From a virus (Duplodnaviria; Caudoviricetes), in IMG/VR virus record IMGVR_UViG_3300037461_000547, positions 17,332 through 81,331 of that record: DNA of 64,000 nt; one strand, 5' to 3'. A program made the translations under genes and the position numbers. The notes under the pieces are model-generated. The model was not told the origin of the DNA. It saw only the letters and a program-made list of their open reading frames with translations, and made no database searches. Shown in pieces: positions 2,214 through 40,683 of this stretch (the first letter of the stretch is position 1; each line of letters starts with the position of its first letter).

Positions 2214-2261
2214 AGAAGTAGACATAGTCTGCCGCTTAATGGCGACAGGAATCATCTATTA

Positions 2262-2373: not shown

Positions 2374-2381
2374 GTCTATAC

Positions 2382-2598
2382 GCCCCCATAGCTCAATTGG
2401 TAGAGCGTCGAGTGTAGAAGCACAGGGAGATAATGCCGTGCCAATCGTAAGATTTGACGAATCTCTACGAAAAGGTTGTGGTCAATATGGGTTTGCTGCC
2501 CAGACCATCACGGAGAAATAATGCCCTGCTACCTTGAAGGCGTGCCCTGTAGGTTCGTCACTACGCTGGGCCTGTGGGTTCGAGTCCCACTGGGGGTA
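2382..2598 (+). ncRNA. Large tRNA-like RNA (217 nt) with expanded anticodon domain and long variable arm
   Basis: Acceptor GCCCCCA/TGGGGGT plus A73; D arm GCTC-AATTGGTA-GAGC; TCGAG/CTTGA stem enclosing 120 nt; T arm GTGGG-TTCGAGT-CCCAC; no encoded CCA. Confidence 0.85.
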
Positions 2599-5212: not shown

Positions 5213-5329
5213 GCGGCGGGCAGTTGGTCTGCAACTCTTTCGTTTTCGTCCGGTTCTTACTGCCGGATTCCGTTATCGTTTCGCCAACGCCTACGGACAG
5301 GGTGAGTCTGGCCACCACGCCACCGCCGC
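5213..5329 (-). ncRNA. Putative ~120-nt structured RNA, copy 1
   Basis: Begins GCGGCGGTGGC and ends TGCCCGCCGC; internal hairpins; intergenic. Confidence 0.5.
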
Positions 5330-6702: not shown

Positions 6703-6824
6703 GGCGGCGGGCATTCATCAAAATCTTGGTTTGACCTCAGTACGGCTTATTAGGACTTAAACCAAGTAACCTCTTGTCCTGTATGTCCGTCGTTTTGGTC
6801 TGGTAGATGTTTGTCACCGCCGCC
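6703..6824 (-). ncRNA. Putative ~120-nt structured RNA, copy 2
   Basis: GGCGGCGGTGAC...TGCCCGCCGCC termini; internal CTTGGTTT/AAACCAAG stem. Confidence 0.5.
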
Positions 6825-6905: not shown

Positions 6906-7026
6906 GCAGCGGGCAGGATAAAACTGGCAATATTTCCTGAGCAATCTTTACAAAGACCTTTGGGGAGCAAGACTCAACCTACTCAATCAGTTCCAGTTTT
7001 GGCTGCTTCATATAAGCCACCGCCGC
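6906..7026 (-). ncRNA. Putative ~120-nt structured RNA, copy 3
   Basis: GCGGCGGTGGC...TGCCCGCTGC termini; internal AAAACTGG/CCAGTTTT stem. Confidence 0.5.
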
Positions 7027-7453: not shown

Positions 7454-7616
7454 GATGTGTCCTTTCTAAACTTAATTTCGATTTAGCCAATCTAAGTTCT
7501 GCTGTAAGATATTCAATATACTTTGATCGGCTCTCAATACGTTCTTGTTTTTGTTCAAACGTTAAATCTTCCCAACCTCGAAACAAGTCATCACACATTT
7601 TGCACCGTCCTTTCAA
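7434..7616 (-). CDS. Hypothetical protein
   Basis: 60 aa, ATGA overlap. Confidence 0.7.
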   Translation of the reverse strand: MKGRCKMCDDLFRGWEDLTFEQKQERIESRSKYIEYLTAELRLAKSKLSLERTHHEHGIQ

Positions 7617-8575
7617 TTTTCACGTGTCATTTCACTGAATATACGACCTTCTTCCGACCCCAAATCCCGTATATAGTTTTCCGCAAGTCGAGTAAGACGT
7701 GCCAACTCATCGGAATCCCAGTACAAAGTTGGGTCTTTACAAATGTTCCACAGTGTCACATACGCACTAAACAATTTCTTTTGATAATCCGCCCCAATAT
7801 ACGCACAATGTTGTGCCACACGTAGCTGACTATTACGACAAACGATTTGGTGAATCATGGCAGGATGTTTCTGTCCTACGGGAATCCCGCATATCCACCC
7901 GTATGGCGCTAATTGGGCAGCCCAATCAGGATAGAGGTCTTCAAAAGACTCACTAACATTAACGGACAACCCATTTTCATTGACAACATAAGCGTCCTTA
8001 TGCCACATGTTGGCGCCCTTCGAAGGCTTCCCAACCCAGCCATCCCGAATCTTGACGTACCCTCTCGCGGGACTCACACCTGAAAGACTGTAAAATCCAT
8101 TGACCTTCCAGTCTAACATAACTTCACCCCCACTCACCTTAAACTTAAGGTCAGGTCTTCCATGGATAATGACAGAGTTTTGGGGGTCATCGCATGTAGT
8201 ACATTGTAACGTACGCTCCGTTGCGAGTTCCAGATTCACGTCATCCGCCTGTTGTAACAAAGTTATGACGTCACTAAGCGCGCCGGAAGTTTTATATGCT
8301 TCAAATACCACACGCCCGTCTTCTTTGGCTTTAGCTCGATTCTGTTCCTCCACCTGTTTTTCGAAGAGTTCGTCGAAGGATACGGATGTAATCCCTAATA
8401 TCGATGCGATGTGTGTTTTAACATAAGCATCGAACGCTGAACCGACAGCCATAGGTATTGTCTGTGGTGGACGTGGCGGTCTATTATCCGCTAAATAACG
8501 AATAAAGAATTCTGTTTTATCTTCTTTCTGCCAACAGCTCATCGCTGTCGGTGACAAATAATTGGGGATACGCAT
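7613..8575 (-). CDS. PD-(D/E)xK (RecB/Cas4-like) exonuclease
   Basis: HGRPDL...MLDWK motif; N-terminal YLSPTAMSCW typical of phage exonucleases. Confidence 0.75.
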   Translation of the reverse strand: MRIPNYLSPTAMSCWQKEDKTEFFIRYLADNRPPRPPQTIPMAVGSAFDAYVKTHIASILGITSVSFDELFEKQVEEQNRAKAKEDGRVVFEAYKTSGALSDVITLLQQADDVNLELATERTLQCTTCDDPQNSVIIHGRPDLKFKVSGGEVMLDWKVNGFYSLSGVSPARGYVKIRDGWVGKPSKGANMWHKDAYVVNENGLSVNVSESFEDLYPDWAAQLAPYGWICGIPVGQKHPAMIHQIVCRNSQLRVAQHCAYIGADYQKKLFSAYVTLWNICKDPTLYWDSDELARLTRLAENYIRDLGSEEGRIFSEMTREN

Positions 8576-10130: not shown

Positions 10131-10224
10131 ACTGTGTCCTTTCTTCTTGTGATTAATAAAATCAAAACAATTATCAACGTAATAATTGTCGGTTTAATCA
10201 TTGTACACTCTTTCTTATTAAAAG

Positions 10225-10304
10225 TGCCAGTACCATGGGGGATTCGAACCCGCATTCCTGATACTATTTATCAGATCCTACCAATTAGATGAATGTGTAC
10301 TGGC
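10225..10304 (-). tRNA. Aberrant tRNA-like gene (pseudo-tRNA), no valid anticodon
   Basis: GCCAGTAC/GTACTGGC stem plus A; D loop AATTGGTA; CTGAT/ATCAG stem; T loop TTCGAAT; acceptor extended by CAT/ATG; anticodon loop AAATAGT lacks U33. Confidence 0.65.
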
Positions 10305-10317
10305 AATATTCACAGGT

Positions 10318-20294: not shown

Positions 20295-20710
20295 CCTTCT
20301 ATGTTTCCGATTGGATAAATCATACCCTTAGGGTCATATATTTTCTTACTGTCCCATGCAACAGCGTGTGTCTTTAATTTTATTACACCCTGTGTTTTTG
20401 TGAGGTAATTCAATAACCGTTGTTTTGCAACTGCGATTGAATAAATCAGATGTGTCTTATTGTCACCATACTGTCCTAACATAGGTAAGGATTGTATTTC
20501 TGTTACACAATACCCTAAACAACAAACAGCGTCAATAAGTTCTTGGATATGAAAGCCACGTCTACACTGTGGTTCGGGTAGACGTGGCCAGAGGATGTGG
20601 TTAGGGTCACTACCCACAAGATGAAAAAGGTGTGTTTGGTTTGTGTCACACGCCATCGCGAATGAAGTTAATAAACATGTATTAGGTATTAGTGATTTTT
20701 GTAGCTGCAT
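20252..20710 (-). CDS. Papain-like (C39-related) cysteine peptidase
   Basis: QKSLIPNTCLLTSFAM...HAVAWD...IYDP suggests a Cys-His-Asp triad. Confidence 0.55.
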   Translation of the reverse strand: MQLQKSLIPNTCLLTSFAMACDTNQTHLFHLVGSDPNHILWPRLPEPQCRRGFHIQELIDAVCCLGYCVTEIQSLPMLGQYGDNKTHLIYSIAVAKQRLLNYLTKTQGVIKLKTHAVAWDSKKIYDPKGMIYPIGNIEGQIESYYIITKITD

Positions 20711-21479
20711 TTATTTTCTTTCCAGCATAGTCGAAATATGTTTTATCTATTTCAACACCAATGAATTTTCTTTCTGTGTTGATTGCAACAATCCCTGTTG
20801 TCCCACTTCCCATGAAGGGATCAAGTACAGTGTCCCCTTTAACACTCCAAGTGAGTATTTGATCAAGCACAAGGTCACGTGGAAAACAAGCGGGGTGTAA
20901 TTCGCCAGGTTCTACAGAATGTCCGCCACCCACTTTATATATAAAGATATTTGTTGCCTTGACTTTTCCTGTGAGTGAAATTGTTGATTCGTGCGATCGT
21001 GTACCGTCTCTGTTTCTGGAGATACTTGTCCGACGTTCTTTTCGGTAAACATCAAAATATTTTCTATCGACCATTTTGGGTATAAATGTTTTTGGTTTTC
21101 CCTTAGAAAAAATAAACATATATTCAAATGCTTGGTAGTACCTTGTATCTCCGCTGACCGGAACAGGATTTTGTTTTACATATAATTGTGTGTCATGTAA
21201 ATTAAATCCAATTTCTTTTGCAAAAAGCGCTTGTCGAAAGGAAGTACCTGTTTCCGATCCTTTTACAGTGGCGTCTGCTACAACCCAAACAACAACACCA
21301 CCTTTTTTAGTAACTCTAAAGATTTGACGCATCGCAAGTTTCCAAACAGACCAATCCCAAACACATCCACCGTATGCACGTAAGTCATCATACGGTGGAC
21401 TTGTTATTGTCAAATCAACAGAATCATTAGGCAATTGTACTAATATGTCGCGACAATCTCCTAAATACAAATCAAACAT
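20682..21479 (-). CDS. DNA N4-cytosine/N6-adenine methyltransferase (beta class)
   Basis: TSPPY precedes DPFMGSGTTG. Confidence 0.92.
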   Translation of the reverse strand: MFDLYLGDCRDILVQLPNDSVDLTITSPPYDDLRAYGGCVWDWSVWKLAMRQIFRVTKKGGVVVWVVADATVKGSETGTSFRQALFAKEIGFNLHDTQLYVKQNPVPVSGDTRYYQAFEYMFIFSKGKPKTFIPKMVDRKYFDVYRKERRTSISRNRDGTRSHESTISLTGKVKATNIFIYKVGGGHSVEPGELHPACFPRDLVLDQILTWSVKGDTVLDPFMGSGTTGIVAINTERKFIGVEIDKTYFDYAGKKINAATKITNT

Positions 21480-21951
21480 TTGTTTTTTCCTCTAAAATGT
21501 CTTCAGAGATTTCAAAAATCCCGTCTGACGCTACCTTCAAATCTTTATGTAACCCACATCCCACAACGAAAACCTTAACACCATTTTCCCGTAGGAAATA
21601 TATCAATGGTATTAAATCGCGGTCGTTACTCACAAGTATTACCTTTGAAATCTTTTCGCGGATAAGGATTACCGTAATCGTAATATCGACATTTAGAGAA
21701 GTTATTTTCCCTGGGGTTGTGTACACAAATTTTGTAACATACCCGATCTGTTTCAAACTATCAATAAAGTTTTTCGCTTCATTTGAAAGACGTGTTCCGT
21801 ACGCATAAAGCAAATCAGGTTCAAACATCTCTTTGAGTTTTGTGTAATCTAATTTGCGATCAGGAAACGCTTTACGGATTGTGTAGTACAAATTAGCTGT
21901 ATCGACTAACAATGCTGTCTTCATTTTATTGGACACCCACCTTTCAAACAT
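21472..21951 (-). CDS. NYN-domain (PIN-like) protein
   Basis: LVDTANL...NVDITI...LVSNDRDLIPL...GVKVFVVG. Confidence 0.85.
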   Translation of the reverse strand: MFERWVSNKMKTALLVDTANLYYTIRKAFPDRKLDYTKLKEMFEPDLLYAYGTRLSNEAKNFIDSLKQIGYVTKFVYTTPGKITSLNVDITITVILIREKISKVILVSNDRDLIPLIYFLRENGVKVFVVGCGLHKDLKVASDGIFEISEDILEEKTNV

Positions 21952-28737: not shown

Positions 28738-29077
28738 CTTGGGACATTTCCGTCACGTTACGGTAATCTGCCCCGAAACAAAAGAATAATTCTACAGGAG
28801 TTATCTTATCTTCGTACGAAATACATTCAAAATAAATTCCGTACTTGGGCGGATCACTGTATTGTTCGATAGTTTCAAATAGTGTAGAGTACCCATAATA
28901 CAGGAAAGCATCCTCATGAAAAAGAAAATCACATTTTGTAACTAACACATGGGATAATAAATCTGTTACAAGATGTGGGTAATTTAATACTGTTTTTTTA
29001 TCTATCTGAAATTTTCCGAGCCGACGTTCCTCAATTATTTTACAGGGATTGGCTTGGGATTGTATAGTCTTTTCCAT
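28730..29077 (-). CDS. Hypothetical protein
   Basis: 115 aa. Confidence 0.7.
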   Translation of the reverse strand: MEKTIQSQANPCKIIEERRLGKFQIDKKTVLNYPHLVTDLLSHVLVTKCDFLFHEDAFLYYGYSTLFETIEQYSDPPKYGIYFECISYEDKITPVELFFCFGADYRNVTEMSQDD

Positions 29078-29873
29078 TTTTCATTGCCTCATTTTTAATG
29101 TCTTGAAAAATATCTAAATCACTAATTTCACCTGCACACCATGAAACACATCTGGCACCAAAACTATTCCCGAGATGTTCCAAGATGTGGTCAATCAAAG
29201 CAAACATTTCTTGTCGTTTACGCAACCGTTTTGATTGTGCCGGTGGCATTTTTCGCGGGATATGTTTGCCAATACCACTATGTTTAATTTTGTTGTCTTT
29301 GATTATTTTGACATGCTCATAGAGTTGTTCGTCAGTCGCACCATTATTTTTTAATGTGTACAAATCACGTATTTGTGTTTGAGATAAAAGACCGGCTGCT
29401 GCTTCCTTTTGAACTTCCACAGGTAATTTAAGTAGCATTACACGGACTTGTACCCATCCTCTTGAAGCACTTGGAAGTTCATCTGCAATTTGGTATTCGT
29501 TTAATCCAAGTTTGAAAAGTGGGAGGATGGATTTTGCTTCTTCAAGTATTGTGAGGTTATGTCTTGAAAGATTTTCTGTTAGATTTAAAATTCTGGCTGC
29601 TTTTTCATCAAGATCAGCTCTAACAATACAATCAATGGTTTCCGCTTTATTTACGCGATGTGCAAAAAGCCGTCTAAAGCCAGCCACAACTTTGTACTTG
29701 TAATCTTCGATAGGCTCTTTTATCGTAGTTACTACGATAGGTTGAATCAGACCGTCTTTAGCAATACTCTTTGCAAGGTCAACAACTTCAACGGGATTTA
29801 TAGAATCCCTACAGTTAAATTCTTCGTCTACATAAATTTCATTCAGTGGGATTTTTTGAATCTGTTCTGACAT
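29040..29873 (-). CDS. ParB-like protein
   Basis: LAKSIAKDGLIQPIVV...VVAGFRRLFA...ENLSRHNL plus HTH. Confidence 0.88.
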   Translation of the reverse strand: MSEQIQKIPLNEIYVDEEFNCRDSINPVEVVDLAKSIAKDGLIQPIVVTTIKEPIEDYKYKVVAGFRRLFAHRVNKAETIDCIVRADLDEKAARILNLTENLSRHNLTILEEAKSILPLFKLGLNEYQIADELPSASRGWVQVRVMLLKLPVEVQKEAAAGLLSQTQIRDLYTLKNNGATDEQLYEHVKIIKDNKIKHSGIGKHIPRKMPPAQSKRLRKRQEMFALIDHILEHLGNSFGARCVSWCAGEISDLDIFQDIKNEAMKNGKDYTIPSQSL

Positions 29874-30528
29874 TTTTGATTTCCTTAAAGCAATAGGTTG
29901 CATATTTTATTTGGTATAAACAATCACTCAATGCGTCGTGTTTATTTTCTTGCGGGTGTTTTTCTTTTAATTTTTTATAGTCGCCACCCCACAACCAAGT
30001 TAAGGTTCTGAGATCACACATGTCGTGGTAGTTAAAAGGTGTACCTTGTCCGAGTATACGGTATGCGTTTGTAATAATAGGAATATCAAACGTTGAATGT
30101 GACCACACATGTTTCGCGTTAAACGAAAAGACTCTGAACGCATTTAAGGCCTCCGACAATGTTTTAGCATCTTTAATCCATGTTCTCGCGGATTCAGGTT
30201 GCTCGAACCACCACTTTATTGTGGAACCATCAATAATTAATCCATGATTCAAACAATCTTGAATCTGTATATTGACACTGAACTTACCACCTATGTCACC
30301 GTCCATATTAAAATAAGCCGCGCCGATTTGTGTAATCACAGATTGTGGTCCTCGACCAAGCGTTTCAAGATCAAGCATTAAATGTGGTGTTGGATTTATA
30401 ATTTTGGGTGTTTCACCTATACATTCTGGATCACCATGTTCCTGTATATAAGCATCAGTATAGGTTGCACCGCAAACACCGCACTCCCACTGTCGGTTTG
30501 CGCGATTTTGATATAGTGAACATTTCAT
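29839..30528 (-). CDS. DEDDh 3'-5' exo(ribo)nuclease (Rv2179c-like) with N-terminal Zn ribbon
   Basis: LMLDLETLG...FDIPII...HDALSD. Confidence 0.85.
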   Translation of the reverse strand: MKCSLYQNRANRQWECGVCGATYTDAYIQEHGDPECIGETPKIINPTPHLMLDLETLGRGPQSVITQIGAAYFNMDGDIGGKFSVNIQIQDCLNHGLIIDGSTIKWWFEQPESARTWIKDAKTLSEALNAFRVFSFNAKHVWSHSTFDIPIITNAYRILGQGTPFNYHDMCDLRTLTWLWGGDYKKLKEKHPQENKHDALSDCLYQIKYATYCFKEIKNVRTDSKNPTE

Positions 30529-33917: not shown

Positions 33918-34877
33918 TTACTTTGTCAAGTTTGCTTCAATCTCAACAGCTTTCTTTGCAGCATCTGCAGCTTTCTGTTTTTCACGTTCAGCTTTCCGAC
34001 GTTGCTTGGCTTCTTCTCTTGAACGTTTTCGCTGTTCATCTAAAATCTGTGCAGCTTCAATCGACTTCTGATCAAGATGCAGTACCCACTGTAGCGTCAG
34101 CATCGCGGCATCCACAGGATTCTTAACCCCAAACTCTTTAATAAGAGCTGGAAGAATCTGCGGGGTCGTCAATTCAGATTTGAGGACAGAAACTTTCTGG
34201 AGGTGTGCAATCGGAACAAACTCAGCAGCTTCAACTTTCTTACCCTGCCGACGGGCTTCCCGAATCTCTTTTGCGCGTTGCTGAATGAGGGGTACAAACT
34301 CATTGGGCTTCATCGTTTGTGCCCTATCAACGAAGGCAGCTTGTTCATCCGGCGGGAGTTTAGCAAGGGCATACGCGTTGGAAAGATTGATTTTTTCCTC
34401 ATCGACAAGTGCGCCGATATTCTTGTCAAGGCGAAGTAAGCCAAGACGCTCGCCAACCCAAGTAGGACTCTTTGACAATTTTGTAGCCAGCTCGGAAATT
34501 GTCATTGTCGCGTTGCAACCCAAAATCTTCTGCAACTGTTTGCTGTACTCGACGGGCTTAGTTTCAATGCGGTGAACATTTGCTAAGACCTGTGCCTCAA
34601 GGACTTGTGCGTCCGAGAGTTTCATAATGTGAACTGGGATTTCGGGAATCCCTGCGTCACAGCACGCCGAAAAACGCTGGAGACCATCAACCAACTCAAA
34701 GAAATCTTTGCCGTCAACACTCTTGGGGCGGACAACGATCGGGTTCAATAATCCGTTCTGTTTGATTGACGCCATCAAATTTTGATAATCTTCAGCTTCC
34801 TTGTTTACGCCACGCAAAGCAACTTCATTCGGGACGATTTCGGTAATCGCAATTGTTTTAACTTCTGTCTTTTGCAT
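33918..34877 (-). CDS. ParB-like protein, first gene of the - block
   Basis: LMASIKQNGLLNPIVV...LVDGLQRFSA...ANVHR plus HTH ISELATKLSKSPTWV. Confidence 0.88.
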   Translation of the reverse strand: MQKTEVKTIAITEIVPNEVALRGVNKEAEDYQNLMASIKQNGLLNPIVVRPKSVDGKDFFELVDGLQRFSACCDAGIPEIPVHIMKLSDAQVLEAQVLANVHRIETKPVEYSKQLQKILGCNATMTISELATKLSKSPTWVGERLGLLRLDKNIGALVDEEKINLSNAYALAKLPPDEQAAFVDRAQTMKPNEFVPLIQQRAKEIREARRQGKKVEAAEFVPIAHLQKVSVLKSELTTPQILPALIKEFGVKNPVDAAMLTLQWVLHLDQKSIEAAQILDEQRKRSREEAKQRRKAEREKQKAADAAKKAVEIEANLTK

Positions 34878-38032: not shown

Positions 38033-38522
38033 AATGACGTTTTATCCACAGATGATACCAATCTTAAAAGCCGCAGCGTTTTTAACATGGAAGGCACACA
38101 AAGTTTTAATGCAAGAAGTAGGTATAGATGAGGATGATCTTATTCAAATTGGATGGTTGCGCGTAGGTAGATTTCTTAAATCTGAAGAACAATTAAAATA
38201 CATGTTCTTAAACGCAAAATCTTGTATGTTTCGTTACTTAGTTTACATGCATGCTAAACGCAATCGTCTTACATTAGTAAGGATACCTGACTTGTCTGAA
38301 GATATGTCACATAAACTGGCTTCAAAAGATAAAATAGAAATACCTGTGATTCAACAACTTTTAGAGTTAAAACAATTAACAGACAGACATAAAAGTATTC
38401 TATATTATTTCTACATTAAAAAACACACATTAAAGGAAATAGGTGAAATTTTAGGTATTAGTCGTGAACGTGTCAGACAATTAAAAAGAGAGGCGTTGCA
38501 AATTAGTAGAGGACTATTATGA
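38007..38522 (+). CDS. Sigma70 region-4 / sigma-like protein
   Basis: LTDRHKSILYYFY...TLKEIGEILGISRERVRQL. Confidence 0.8.
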   Translation: MARPINKNKMTFYPQMIPILKAAAFLTWKAHKVLMQEVGIDEDDLIQIGWLRVGRFLKSEEQLKYMFLNAKSCMFRYLVYMHAKRNRLTLVRIPDLSEDMSHKLASKDKIEIPVIQQLLELKQLTDRHKSILYYFYIKKHTLKEIGEILGISRERVRQLKREALQISRGLL

Positions 38523-39046
38523 TGAACGATGTTAAAGACAGTGGTGAACGAAGAACGTTTGAAACAGGTGCACAACGTGATCGTGCGTTTGGTAAGGGTC
38601 TACCAACTTTAATAAGTCCAATTTTTGTACGAGATTTAATTGCAAAAACAAATCCCGGACCTTTGGAAGGGGATTTATTGGCGCTTGATATTGCCTATGA
38701 AATTCTTGAAACTGGTGATTGGACTAAAGCATTAGACATCTTCGATGCACTCACATCGGACTATCCTTCGGGTCTACGTTTATTATCTTACCAGTTAGAG
38801 AAAGGTGCTGCGAAATATAGTGCAAGGAATTGGGAAAAAGGCATGCCTTTGGAAGAATATCTGAACTCTTTGATTCGCCACATCCTTGCAGTTATAGAGG
38901 GTAAAAATGATGAACCACATTTAGACGCGGCGCTTTTCAATGCGATGGCACTTTATCATACAGGTAAAATGATTCAACGTTGTTTGCTACCTTCTACGCT
39001 GGATAATTTGCCGAAACCAATCAATTATGTAAGAGAGATAATTTAA
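38519..39046 (+). CDS. dATP/dGTP diphosphohydrolase-like (DUF5664)
   Basis: RTFETGAQRD...GAAKYSARNWEKGM...SLIRH...HL. Confidence 0.8.
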   Translation: MMNDVKDSGERRTFETGAQRDRAFGKGLPTLISPIFVRDLIAKTNPGPLEGDLLALDIAYEILETGDWTKALDIFDALTSDYPSGLRLLSYQLEKGAAKYSARNWEKGMPLEEYLNSLIRHILAVIEGKNDEPHLDAALFNAMALYHTGKMIQRCLLPSTLDNLPKPINYVREII

Positions 39047-39249: not shown

Positions 39250-39805
39250 GACATTCGACTTATTGGCAGCTTTTGCAGATTTGGATAATCTGACAAAACT
39301 ACCACCCAACAAAATACTCTATTCCAACGGTAACTATGATGAATGTTATACACCGCCGTATGCTGTATATCCGCTTGTGAAATATGTCCCCAAAGATACT
39401 ATTATTTGGTGCCCGTTCGATACGCTTGAAAGTGCATTTGTTAAAATTTTAAGTAAAACAAACATTGTATTTAGGAGCCATATTTCAGATGGTCAGGATT
39501 TTTATACATTCACACCGCCCATTCATTGGGACATGATTATAAGTAATCCGCCATTCACAAATAAAAGACAGATATTTGAGCGTGCGTTGTCGTTTGGAAA
39601 ACCTTTTGCTTTGTTAATGTCTAACACATGGCTCAATGACGCAGCACCTAAACAAATATTCAAACATAAAGATTTGCAACTTTTAATGTTTGAAGAACGT
39701 ATTGATTTTACAGGTACTGAAAAAATACCATTTAGTAGTAGTTATTTTTGTTGGAATTTTTTACCCAAACAAATTATAATGGAAAGTTTGAAAGGATATT
39801 TATGA
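39242..39805 (+). CDS. Phage N6-adenine-type methyltransferase
   Basis: YTPPY, WCPFD and ISNPPF motifs. Confidence 0.8.
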   Translation: MTETFDLLAAFADLDNLTKLPPNKILYSNGNYDECYTPPYAVYPLVKYVPKDTIIWCPFDTLESAFVKILSKTNIVFRSHISDGQDFYTFTPPIHWDMIISNPPFTNKRQIFERALSFGKPFALLMSNTWLNDAAPKQIFKHKDLQLLMFEERIDFTGTEKIPFSSSYFCWNFLPKQIIMESLKGYL

Positions 39806-39848
39806 CTGAGAAATTCGACTTATTGGCAGCCTTTGCAGATTTGGATAA
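39242..39848 (+). repeat. 47-bp duplicated gene start shared by two methyltransferases
   Basis: 39242-39288 versus 39802-39848, 45/47 identical. Confidence 0.95.
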
Positions 39849-40683
39849 ATCAGACGAAACACGGGAAACAATTCTTCGTGCGCCGTTCAGTTATCCAGGC
39901 GGTAAATCGCGCTCTGTGGAAACAATTACACAACATTTACCGATTAAAAAGATTTACGTTGAACCGTTTGGCGGAAGTGGCGCTGTTCTTCTTGCACGCC
40001 AGAAAAGCAAATTAGAGATATTCAATGATAGATATGCAGGCGTTGTTGCACTATATCGTGTTATCCGAGACCCGCAAAAGTTAGAACAATTCCTTGACAG
40101 GATGCGTGCAATCATACACTCACGTGAGGAGTTTCGATGGTGTAAGGATACCTGGAAGACATGTGCAGATGATGTTGAACGGGCAGCACGTTGGTATTAT
40201 ATGACAATGTGTTCTTTCAGTTCTTTAGGGAGAAACTTCGGACGCTCAACGTCGGGTTCTAATAATATGATGTCAAAAATCAGAAATAAATTCCCAGATT
40301 TCTGGCCACTTCACGACCGCATCAAGGACGTTACTTTCGAAAATCAGGATTGGGAACAAATAGTGTATGACTATGATAATGAAGATGCTGTCTTTTATAT
40401 GGACCCACCATATCTAACTGCATATAAAGGCACATACAAACATGAAATGACGTATGATGAACACCGGCACTTGCTTGATGTAATTATGAAAATGAAAGCG
40501 TTTGTTGCAGTAAGTGGTTTTAGTAATGAACTTTACGACAGTTATAAGTGGGATGAAAAATATACTTGGGATGTTAACCAATCGATTAAAGCTATGGCTT
40601 TCCATGAAGAAAATTATAAGGCAGAATTGAAAGATTTAGCAACACGTGAAACACAGGAGGAAGTTTTGTGGATAAAGCATTAG
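39802..40683 (+). CDS. Dam-like (D12 class) DNA adenine methyltransferase
   Basis: YPGGKS, VEPFGGSG, FYMDPPY and EEVLW motifs. Confidence 0.92.
   Translation: MTEKFDLLAAFADLDKSDETRETILRAPFSYPGGKSRSVETITQHLPIKKIYVEPFGGSGAVLLARQKSKLEIFNDRYAGVVALYRVIRDPQKLEQFLDRMRAIIHSREEFRWCKDTWKTCADDVERAARWYYMTMCSFSSLGRNFGRSTSGSNNMMSKIRNKFPDFWPLHDRIKDVTFENQDWEQIVYDYDNEDAVFYMDPPYLTAYKGTYKHEMTYDEHRHLLDVIMKMKAFVAVSGFSNELYDSYKWDEKYTWDVNQSIKAMAFHEENYKAELKDLATRETQEEVLWIKH

What the first reader, a model, noticed from the sequence alone, without database searches (positions are those of the whole stretch)
2382..2598. 217-nt tRNA-shaped RNA with a 120-nt structured anticodon domain docking onto a long variable arm
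Seen in sequence: canonical acceptor, D and T arms. The anticodon stem TCGAG/CTTGA continues through GTAG/CTAC, CAGGG/CCCTG, a near-symmetric internal loop (AGATAATG / AGAAATAATG) and CCGTG/CACGG into two hairpins. A long variable arm (GCCC/GGGC, GTAG/CTAC) has loop GTTCGTCA. TTCGTCA (2554-2560) is the exact complement of TGACGAA (2455-2461) at the insert hairpin loop, suggesting a kissing interaction. The AAGCA bulge can also pair with loop TGCT. There is no 7-nt anticodon loop, no G3-U70 alanine identity, no recognisable group I P7 elements and no bulge-helix-bulge. Inference: a tRNA-mimic ncRNA class, for example a decoy for anticodon nucleases or uncharged-tRNA sensors, a tmRNA analogue, or a tRNA with an unknown intron type.
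Basis: partly seen in the sequence, partly recalled or inferred. Interest (0 to 1): 0.9.

Follow-up and report, generated by a model that had tools for sequence, protein, structure and literature searches.

The report
Anticodon-less tRNA-shaped phage RNA gene
An uncultured wetland phage carries a gene for a 217-base RNA that keeps the body of a tRNA but has a 120-base folded domain where the codon-reading loop should be. It is the same kind of object as the long-known, still unexplained 'tRNA-like stable RNAs' of phages T5 and T4.

Summary
Window 2382-2598 (+) has a 7-bp acceptor stem, canonical D and T arms, a roughly 120-nt three-way-junction domain in place of the anticodon loop, and a 28-nt variable-arm hairpin. 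Rfam's tRNA model scores it 35.3 bits (cut-off 29), with a 124-nt insertion in the anticodon arm and a 34-nt one in the variable region.

One syntenic relative (L239) keeps the tRNA frame: 8 of 16 pairs have changed on both sides. A third relative appears in a wastewater run.

The 'new RNA class' reading is not supported. Phage T5 RNA1, annotated 'tRNA-like stable RNA with unknown functions', aligns to the tRNA model in the same way, and this scan has noted the same kind on many other phage genomes.

An intron reading (tRNA-Tyr GUA after removal of 100-134 nt) scores no better than shuffled inserts. There is no bulge-helix-bulge motif, no group I hit, and no splicing enzyme was found.

The proposed loop-loop kiss is complementary (7 nt; chance about 2%), but the single informative change in L239 breaks a pair. 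Its hairpin is also one of 114 genome-wide GATT-N5-AATC DNA motifs.

Verdict: a new member of a known, functionally unexplained kind. Interest is moderate.

The parts
2382..2388 (+). Acceptor stem, 5' strand (GCCCCCA). It pairs with 2591-2597; the first pair is G.U.
   Evidence: Sequence. RF00005 alignment. Three of 7 pairs changed on both sides versus L239.
2389..2407 (+). U8-A9, D arm (GCUC-AAUUGGUA-GAGC, with A14 and G18G19) and G26.
   Evidence: Three of 4 D-stem pairs changed on both sides versus L239.
2408..2412 (+). 5' strand of the anticodon-position stem (UCGAG), pairing with 2533-2537 (CUUGA).
Evidence: Infernal places the anticodon stem here.
2413..2532 (+). 120-nt structured domain replacing the anticodon loop. 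It comprises helices GUAG/CUAC, CAGGG/CCCUG and CCGUG/CACGG, an 8x10 internal loop (AGAUAAUG/AGAAAUAAUG) and a three-way junction with two hairpins.
   Evidence: No Rfam family matches it. No other copy exists in the phage genome.
2445..2470 (+). Insert hairpin 1, with apical AGAUU-UGACG-AAUCU. It is kept in L239 as GGAUU-UGACU-AAUCC at the same distance (49 nt along the 5' strand) from the stem base.
   Evidence: Shared 8-mer GATTTGAC at positions 70 and 72. It is also an instance of the genome-wide GATT-N5-AATC motif.
2478..2508 (+). Insert hairpin 2 (GUGGUC...GACCAU, loop UUGCU). It is absent from L239.
2533..2537 (+). 3' strand of the anticodon-position stem (CUUGA).
2544..2571 (+). Long variable-arm hairpin GCCC-U-GUAG-[GUUCGUCA]-CUAC-GCU-GGGC. 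The loop contains GUCA, complementary to the hairpin-1 loop.
   Evidence: L239 has a 9-bp variable hairpin with loop GAUUUGUCAA. The X2 relative has the same stems with loop AUUUUGUCA.
2574..2590 (+). T arm GUGGG-UUCGAGU-CCCAC.
   Evidence: Two of 5 pairs changed on both sides versus L239.
2591..2598 (+). Acceptor 3' strand (UGGGGGU) and discriminator A. No CCA is encoded.

Best explanation
This is a phage gene for a non-decoding, tRNA-shaped stable RNA of the same kind as phage T5 RNA1/RNA2 and T4 RNAC/RNAD.

Proposed mechanism:
- The RNA is transcribed as part of the rightward early gene block. No promoter or terminator of its own was found.
- It keeps every element that host tRNA-processing enzymes read: a 7-bp acceptor stem, U8, A14, G18G19, and the T loop UUCGAGU with G53-C61.
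- I therefore infer that RNase P cuts at 2382, and that 3' trimming and CCA addition act at 2598. This would release a stable RNA of about 217 nt.
- In that RNA the tRNA frame is a chassis. The lineage-variable 120-nt three-way-junction domain and the long variable hairpin are the working part.
- It has no 7-nt anticodon loop at the end of the anticodon stem, so it cannot read codons.
- My best guess for the working part is that it binds or titrates a tRNA-recognising protein of the host or the phage. It may be held in shape by a 4-7 bp loop-loop contact between UGACG (2455-2459) and CGUCA (2556-2560).

Shown: the fold elements, selection on the frame, membership of the tRNA shape family, and the same architecture as T5 RNA1.
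Inferred: processing, stability, no splicing, the kiss, and any function.
For: - RF00005 scores 35.3 bits (cut-off 29) over model positions 1-71, with a 124-nt insertion in the anticodon arm and a 34-nt insertion in the variable region.
- T5 RNA1 (NC_005859 30501-30644, annotated 'tRNA-like stable RNA with unknown functions') aligns to RF00005 in the same way. It has a 47-nt insertion in the anticodon arm, a 19-nt variable arm and a mismatched first acceptor pair.
- The L239 relative sits directly after the homologous 424-aa gene. It keeps the acceptor, D and T helices: 8 of 16 pairs changed on both sides, 6 are unchanged, 1 changed on one side, and only the 1:72 pair is unpaired.
- D-loop and T-loop tertiary nucleotides are kept in both.
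- The insert differs in sequence and branching between the two relatives, but the variable hairpin and the apical hairpin are kept.
- T4 RNAC/RNAD are expressed, and their roles are unknown (PMC3014915, PMC9697503).
- Other IMG/VR phages carry tRNA frames with 58-59-nt inserts (L451, L501).
Against: - No RNA data show a discrete 217-nt transcript or its ends.
- Only two full sequences and one fragment exist, so the insert helices and the kiss cannot be tested by covariation.
- Unlike T5 and T4, this phage has no canonical tRNA genes around the element.
- No sequence homology to the T5 or T4 RNAs was found, so the kinship is one of design, not shown descent.
- Both relatives share YUGUAGR, and both give GUA as the best ARAGORN 'spliced' anticodon. 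This leaves some room for an intron reading.
- L239 itself reaches only 13.7 bits on RF00005.
Confidence: 0.6

Rival explanations
1. It is an interrupted tRNA-Tyr(GUA) gene. An intervening sequence of about 100-134 nt, of an unknown type, is removed to give a decoding tRNA. For the window this means removing RNA positions 32-165, which leaves stem CGAG/UUCG and loop CUGUAGG.
For: - Among all deletions, the best ARAGORN score is tRNA-Tyr(GUA) in both relatives: 118.8 for the window and 115.1 for L239, within the range of real phage tRNAs (106-123).
- Both share YUGUAGR and the 9-mer UGUAGAAGC.
- ARAGORN -i calls both as intron-bearing tRNAs.
Against: - The best-splice scores equal the median of controls with shuffled inserts: 28 of 60 and 19 of 60 shuffles score at least as high.
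- The precursor fold with the Tyr-type stem is 13 kcal/mol worse than the MFE.
- The implied splice sites lie at different tRNA positions in the two relatives. L239 then lacks nucleotide 26 and has a G.A at pair 31:39 (and reading of the sequence).
- In the X2 relative the would-be U33 is C.
- There is no bulge-helix-bulge at any plausible boundary.
- The insert is too short for group I, and Rfam gives no intron or ribozyme hit.
- No RNA ligase or splicing endonuclease is among the 39 ORFs scanned.
- T5 RNA1, which has the same architecture, is annotated as a stable RNA of its full 144-nt length, insert included.
Confidence: 0.12
2. It is a cis-acting tRNA-like punctuation element. Its only job is to recruit RNase P and 3' tRNA processing so that the polycistronic early transcript is cut between the upstream genes and ORF 2632-2901. 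The excised RNA has no trans function.
For: - No sigma-70-like promoter or intrinsic terminator flanks it on the + strand.
- It sits between copies of the gene-preceding motif AATGGCGACAGGA / TTTGGTGACAGGA, like a cassette in the operon.
- A contig of run X2 runs from the T arm through the 3' end into the next gene's start codon.
- The phage encodes a NYN-domain RNase and an Rv2179c-like 3'-5' exoribonuclease.
Against: - A minimal acceptor/T-arm helix would be enough for RNase P, so nothing explains maintaining a 120-nt structured domain and a 28-nt variable hairpin.
- The closest relatives L240 and L243 manage the same operon without it.
- Run X2 may be DNA, so the read-through contig says little.
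Confidence: 0.15
3. It is a decaying tRNA pseudogene that picked up an insertion (a partial duplication or a small palindromic element) and has no function.
For: - UGUAG occurs at both ends of a 135-nt segment (RNA positions 32-36 and 167-171), resembling a target-site duplication.
- GUAG/CUAC and GCCC/GGGC are duplicated inside the element.
- The phage genome is rich in intergenic palindromic elements.
- The element is absent from L240 and L243.
Against: - Eight compensated pairs, and intact tertiary nucleotides in the frame, between two phages whose neighbouring protein is only 52% identical.
- The variable hairpin and the apical hairpin are kept.
- No second copy of the insert exists in the genome.
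- A near-identical 3' half is found in an independent wastewater sample.
Confidence: 0.07

Closest known systems
Phage T5 RNA1 (T5s03, 144 nt) and RNA2 (T5s06, 125 nt), annotated 'tRNA-like stable RNA with unknown functions'
   Same: Both are phage-encoded, with an acceptor, D and T arm frame. A large insertion sits inside the anticodon arm, together with a hairpin variable arm. RF00005 aligns T5 RNA1 full-length with a 47-nt insertion, exactly as it aligns this element with a 124-nt one. The first acceptor pair is non-Watson-Crick in both, and neither encodes a CCA.
   Different: No detectable sequence homology. The insert here is 2.5 times longer and branched. The T5 RNAs lie inside a cluster of about 20 tRNA genes, whereas this phage has no canonical tRNA gene. 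The D arm here is class-I-like, not Leu-like.
Phage T4 RNAC (species 1, 139 nt) and RNAD (species 2, 119 nt)
   Same: They are small stable phage RNAs made from the tRNA region, with a tRNA-type T arm and terminal helix. Their function is unknown despite decades of study (PMC3014915; PMC9697503).
   Different: RF00005 gives no full-length alignment for T4 rnaC; there is only a weak 17.5-bit tRNA-Sec-model match. They lie in a tRNA cluster. No homology is shown.
Class II tRNAs (Leu, Ser, bacterial Tyr; Rfam RF00005)
   Same: Cloverleaf frame with a long variable-arm hairpin. The score is above Rfam's gathering threshold.
   Different: There is no 7-nt anticodon loop. The variable region is 36 nt, longer than in any canonical class II tRNA that I know of. 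The D arm is of the class I type.
Group I introns in bacterial tRNA anticodon loops (tRNA-Leu UAA, tRNA-fMet, Azoarcus tRNA-Ile)
   Same: An intervening structured RNA at the anticodon loop of a bacterial-type tRNA gene.
   Different: The insert is 113-134 nt, against about 205 nt or more for known group I introns (from my own knowledge). There is no Rfam intron hit. The intron would not end in G at the candidate 3' boundaries, and the splice positions are inconsistent between relatives.
tmRNA and YrlA (tRNA-like Y RNA)
   Same: They are tRNA mimics that combine a tRNA-like module with a large extra domain.
   Different: ARAGORN tmRNA mode finds nothing. A full D arm is present and there is no tag reading frame. 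In YrlA the RNA ends lie in the Ro-binding stem, not at the acceptor. Rfam gives no hit.

Membership tests
tRNA (Rfam RF00005) | Covariance-model score at or above the gathering threshold (29 bits) over the whole cloverleaf | tested here: met
   35.3 bits, model positions 1-71, E = 4e-6. It is missed when the whole window is searched with Rfam's filters. The L239 relative reaches only 13.7 bits.
tRNA (Rfam RF00005) | A 5-bp anticodon stem closed by a 7-nt loop with U33 and an anticodon | tested here: not met
   The stem UCGAG/CUUGA encloses 120 nt. Default ARAGORN finds no tRNA.
tRNA (Rfam RF00005) | Aminoacylation and decoding on the ribosome | not testable with these tools
   This needs biochemistry.
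Phage tRNA-like stable RNAs (T5 RNA1/RNA2, T4 RNAC/RNAD) | Phage-encoded RNA with a tRNA acceptor and T-arm frame and a non-anticodon insertion in the anticodon arm | tested here: met
   This element and T5 RNA1 give the same RF00005 alignment pattern. The window is an 81-kb IMG/VR phage record.
Phage tRNA-like stable RNAs (T5 RNA1/RNA2, T4 RNAC/RNAD) | Accumulates as a discrete stable RNA that includes the insertion | not testable with these tools
   No RNA run holds the stretch. The one 'RNA?' run is contigs and may be DNA.
Phage tRNA-like stable RNAs (T5 RNA1/RNA2, T4 RNAC/RNAD) | Location inside a phage tRNA gene cluster | tested here: not met
   The 81-kb record has no canonical tRNA gene.
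Phage tRNA-like stable RNAs (T5 RNA1/RNA2, T4 RNAC/RNAD) | Sequence homology to the T5 or T4 RNAs | tested here: not met
   blastn of 2300-2700 against 50,697 phage records finds no match. Only generic D-arm and T-arm similarity to ordinary tRNAs is seen.
Group I intron in a tRNA gene | Catalytic core (P3-P9, guanosine site) recognisable by the Rfam Intron_gpI model, and a length of about 200 nt or more | tested here: not met
   There is no intron or ribozyme hit at E <= 10. The insert is 113-134 nt.
Archaeal/eukaryal protein-spliced tRNA intron | Bulge-helix-bulge (3-nt bulges on opposite strands, 4 bp apart) at the exon-intron boundaries | tested here: not met
An exhaustive scan of both relatives found no such motif at any plausible boundary.
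tmRNA | tRNA-like domain lacking a D stem, plus a tag reading frame and pseudoknots | tested here: not met
   ARAGORN tmRNA mode finds nothing. A full D arm is present.

The most novel reading that the evidence does not exclude
The insert-to-variable-arm loop-loop contact locks a tRNA-shaped scaffold. That scaffold is processed, and perhaps charged, like a tRNA, and it acts in trans as a decoy or inhibitor of a tRNA-targeting host defence nuclease or a tRNA-sensing factor. Alternatively, the insert is a new, non-group-I, non-BHB kind of tRNA intervening sequence in phage tRNA-Tyr genes.
Probability: 0.1. Interest if true: 0.8.

Novelty: new member of a known kind. Interest (0 to 1): 0.4.

Why it matters
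Anticodon-less tRNA-shaped RNAs have been known in T4 and T5 since the 1970s, and reviews still list their role as unknown (PMC3014915). This element shows that the design also occurs in an unrelated wetland phage lineage with no ordinary tRNA genes.

That argues the frame is a reusable chassis for processing and stability, and not a leftover of a tRNA cluster. It adds one more data point towards finding what these RNAs do.

On its own, however, the element is a poor test case. The phage is uncultured, the host is unknown, and only two and a half sequences exist.

Tried and rejected
- Pattern scans for relatives:
  - D arm, 155-185 nt, then T arm in IMG/VR gave only ordinary tRNA clusters.
  - The internal-loop pattern AGATAATG...AGAAATAATG gave only chance hits.
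  - Hairpin plus T arm gave one false hit in IMG/VR. In metagenomes it gave 120 rows dominated by TTGACA promoters ahead of ordinary tRNAs, plus L239's own contig.
  - TTCGTCA plus T arm gave 90 hits and no homologue of this insert.
- Neighbour-based search:
  - The 424-aa neighbour has 6 relatives. Only L239 carries the element; L240, L241, L243 and L537 do not.
  - 80 IMG/VR loci with a 50-58% identical terminase showed none by ARAGORN -i or by a custom acceptor/T-arm scan.
  - The DNA polymerase has no close relative in IMG/VR.
  - The downstream 89-aa ORF has no homologue at all, and it is unrelated to L239's downstream ORF.
- Spliced tRNA-Tyr reading: rejected as unsupported after the shuffle control.
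- BHB intron: rejected.
- tmRNA: rejected.
- MITE or repeat origin of the insert: there is no second copy in the genome.
- ORF 2521-2901 starting inside the RNA (SD GGAG plus ATG): considered. The X2 relative stays alike up to the ATG at 2632-2634 and diverges after it, so the start at 2632 is more likely.
- Expression: no RNA holder is listed. Run X2 is labelled RNA-Seq but may be DNA, and it is held only as contigs.
- Complex prediction, structure prediction and the protein atlas were not used, because no protein partner is indicated.

Full report
**What the window is.** The window is bases 17332-81331 of an 81-kb IMG/VR virus record, estimated 89% complete. It holds a tailed phage with a GpA-type terminase, its own DNA polymerase, ribonucleotide reductase, helicases, primase, ligase and dUTPase. 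The one run that fully holds the stretch is a wetland metagenome.

**Checking the observation.**
- The acceptor stem is GCCCCCA/UGGGGGU, with a G1.U72 first pair.
- U8 is followed by the D arm GCUC-AAUUGGUA-GAGC.
- The stem UCGAG/CUUGA continues through GUAG/CUAC, CAGGG/CCCUG, the 8x10 internal loop and CCGUG/CACGG into a three-way junction with two hairpins.
- The 36-nt variable region folds as GCCC-U-GUAG-[GUUCGUCA]-CUAC-GCU-GGGC.
- The T arm is GUGGG-UUCGAGU-CCCAC, followed by discriminator A. No CCA is encoded.
- TGACGAA (2455-2461) is the exact complement of TTCGTCA (2554-2560).

The model is therefore thermodynamically as good as the optimum. The MFE differs only in pairing GUAG(33-36) with the second CUAC copy.

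**What the standard detectors say.** ARAGORN in default mode and Rfam with its own filters find nothing in the window. This is a filter effect. Given only the element, Rfam's tRNA model RF00005 matches 2382-2598 over all 71 model positions at 35.3 bits (gathering 29, E = 4e-6). ARAGORN with introns allowed also calls it. No other Rfam family, intron or ribozyme matches.

**Relatives.**
- The upstream 424-aa protein has six relatives in 5.8 billion proteins.
- In one of them, a 90-kb phage contig in an NCBI assembly with 52% protein identity, a 194-nt element sits directly behind the homologous gene (L239:7354-7547).
- Other relatives of similar distance (L240, L241, L243, L537) have different sequence at that place.
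- None of 80 IMG/VR loci with a 50-58% identical terminase has such an element within 8 kb.
- A wastewater run (X2) holds short contigs of a third, close relative. One covers the 5' leader through the D arm. Another runs from the variable arm through the T arm and 3' end to the next gene's ATG.

**Selection on the frame.** Between the window and L239, 16 acceptor, D and T pairs can be compared. Eight changed on both sides and still pair, one changed on one side, six are identical, and only pair 1:72 is unpaired (G.U versus G.A). U8, A14, G18G19 and the T loop UUCGA are kept. This excludes a decaying pseudogene as the simple explanation and shows that the tRNA shape itself is what is maintained.

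**The insert.** The inserts are alike in layout but not in sequence.
- L239 has a single long, irregular rod. The window has a three-way junction.
- Three things are kept:
  - an apical hairpin, RGAUU-UGACK-AAUCY, 49 nt along the 5' strand from the stem base in both;
  - a variable hairpin of 8-9 bp;
  - a variable-arm loop containing UUYGUCA (GUUCGUCA, GAUUUGUCAA, and AUUUUGUCA in X2).
- UGAC and GUCA are therefore available for a loop-loop contact in both relatives.
- A 7-nt complement to the variable loop turns up somewhere in only 1.7% of shuffled inserts.
- The evidence stops there. The one position that differs is G-C in the window and U.U in L239, which is not compensated.
- The hairpin arms have another explanation. 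GATT-N5-AATC occurs 114 times in the 81-kb genome, against about 2.4 expected and 0-13 for other spacings. It is enriched in 22 of 85 related phage loci. The hairpin is one instance of a genome-wide palindromic DNA motif.
- I therefore rate the kiss as possible, not shown.

**Is it a split tRNA gene?** I deleted every segment (about 4,700 combinations per sequence) and scored the products with ARAGORN.
- The best product is tRNA-Tyr(GUA) in both relatives, with scores of 118.8 and 115.1, within the range of real phage tRNAs. This looked promising.
- The control removes it. With the insert shuffled, the best score is at least as high in 28 of 60 trials for the window and 19 of 60 for L239.
- The agreement on GUA, and the shared YUGUAGR, is the only residual support, at roughly 1-in-20 odds.
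- Several observations count against the reading:
  - the implied junctions fall at different tRNA positions in the two relatives;
  - L239 would lack nucleotide 26;
  - the Tyr-type stem costs 13 kcal/mol in the precursor;
  - the would-be U33 is C in the X2 relative;
  - no bulge-helix-bulge exists at any plausible boundary;
  - the insert is far too short for group I;
  - 39 phage ORFs scanned show no RNA ligase or splicing endonuclease.

**Comparison with what is known.** Notes from earlier agents of this scan pointed to phage T5 RNA1/RNA2 and T4 RNAC/RNAD, and I checked this myself.
- The T5 record annotates RNA1 (144 nt) and RNA2 (125 nt) as 'tRNA-like stable RNA with unknown functions'.
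- T5 RNA1 folds as a tRNA frame with an insertion in the anticodon arm and a hairpin variable arm.
- RF00005 aligns T5 RNA1 full-length with a 47-nt insertion at the same place and a mismatched first acceptor pair (24 bits).
- T4 annotates rnaC and rnaD as small stable RNAs. Reviews say their roles are unknown (PMC3014915), and they are expressed late (PMC9697503).
- Because T5 RNA1 is annotated as a stable RNA that includes its insertion, the analogy favours an unspliced product here too.
- The element differs in three ways: it has no sequence homology to those RNAs, it is not in a tRNA cluster because the phage has none, and its insert is much larger and branched.
- Other IMG/VR phages seen in passing carry tRNA frames with 58-59-nt inserts, in line with the scan's earlier notes that this is a widespread, uncatalogued kind.

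**How it most likely works.**
- Shown: a tRNA-shaped gene under selection for its frame, unable to present an anticodon in the normal place, and embedded in an operon without a promoter or terminator of its own.
- Inferred: host RNase P and 3' tRNA maturation release a stable RNA of about 217 nt. The frame provides processing and stability. The insert and the long variable arm are the active part, most plausibly binding a tRNA-recognising protein.
- The phage's NYN-domain RNase and Rv2179c-like 3'-5' exoribonuclease could take part in maturation, but nothing ties them to it.

My odds are:

| Reading | Odds |
|---|---|
| Non-decoding stable tRNA-like RNA | 0.6 |
| Pure cis processing signal | 0.15 |
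| Split tRNA-Tyr | 0.12 |
| Pseudogene | 0.07 |
| Other | remainder |

**Verdict.** The 'new class' claim is not: this is a new, unusually elaborate member of a known but functionally unexplained kind, which this scan has already met on many other phage genomes. Interest is moderate. The kind is a real open question, but this uncultured example, with two and a half sequences, is not the one that will answer it.

Noticed in passing
whole window and G000; instance at window 2451-2463: The palindromic DNA motif GATT-N5-AATC occurs 114 times in the 81-kb phage, against about 2.4 expected and 0-13 for spacings 0-11 other than 5. Median spacing is 556 bp, on both strands and inside genes. It is also enriched (>=0.5 per kb) in 22 of 85 related phage loci. 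The phage encodes two ParB_N+HTH_ParB proteins (29040-29903, 33918-34877) and two DNA methyltransferases (20682-21479, 39802-40683), which are candidate readers or writers of the motif.
   Followed up: partly
window 10222-10306 (-): A second, short tRNA-like cloverleaf lies just after the 430-aa gene. It has a 9-bp terminal helix (UGCCAGUAC/GUACUGGCA), an AAUUGGUAG-type D loop, a 6-bp stem with a 5-nt loop AAUAG instead of an anticodon loop, and a T loop GGGUUCGAAUCCCC. Default ARAGORN and RF00005 do not call it; the fold z-score is -2.8.
   Followed up: partly
window 2225-2250 and 2599-2611; L239:7320-7345, 7565-7590; L240:7538-7560, 7763-7785, 7897-7920, 8028-8050; L243:2600-2625, 2730-2755: A conserved hairpin-like motif, (C)CAATGGC[GT]ACAG[AG]G, precedes almost every gene and the tRNA-like RNA in the early operon of all three phage lineages. 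It often lies about 20 nt ahead of the start codon. It could be a phage-specific promoter, an RNA-processing site or a translational operator.
   Followed up: no
window 5213-5329, 6703-6824, 6906-7026 (-): Three intergenic elements of about 120 nt start GCGGCGGTG and end TGCCCGC(C/T)GC, with unrelated interiors. Another first-reader note also listed them. They are not tRNA-like by my reading.
   Followed up: no
window 38519-39046 (+), 21472-21951 (-), 29839-30528 (-): A MazZ-like dATP/dGTP diphosphohydrolase N-terminal domain hints at non-canonical DNA bases. A NYN-domain ribonuclease and an Rv2179c-like 3'-5' exoribonuclease are candidate phage RNA-processing enzymes.
   Followed up: no
run X2 (wastewater), contigs laid on window 2374-2406 and 2568-2634: A close relative of the element exists in a wastewater sample. 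It stays alike through the 3' end and the 36-nt spacer up to the next gene's ATG, then diverges completely, as if downstream genes are exchanged as cassettes at the start codon.
   Followed up: partly
L451/L523 (about 139 nt), L501 (about 132 nt); L455, L463, L472, L476, L505, L516, L517, L534, L535: Other IMG/VR phages carry tRNA frames with 58-59-nt inserts in the anticodon arm. A separate, strongly conserved element of about 190 nt ends in a T arm and ...CGGCCCACCA (nine near-identical loci). None is related to this insert.
   Followed up: no
window 2382/2597; L239:7354/7546; T5 RNA1: The first acceptor pair (1:72) is non-Watson-Crick in all three tRNA-like RNAs: G.U, G.A and U.U. This recalls the unpaired 1:72 of bacterial initiator tRNA, which keeps it away from EF-Tu.
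   Followed up: no
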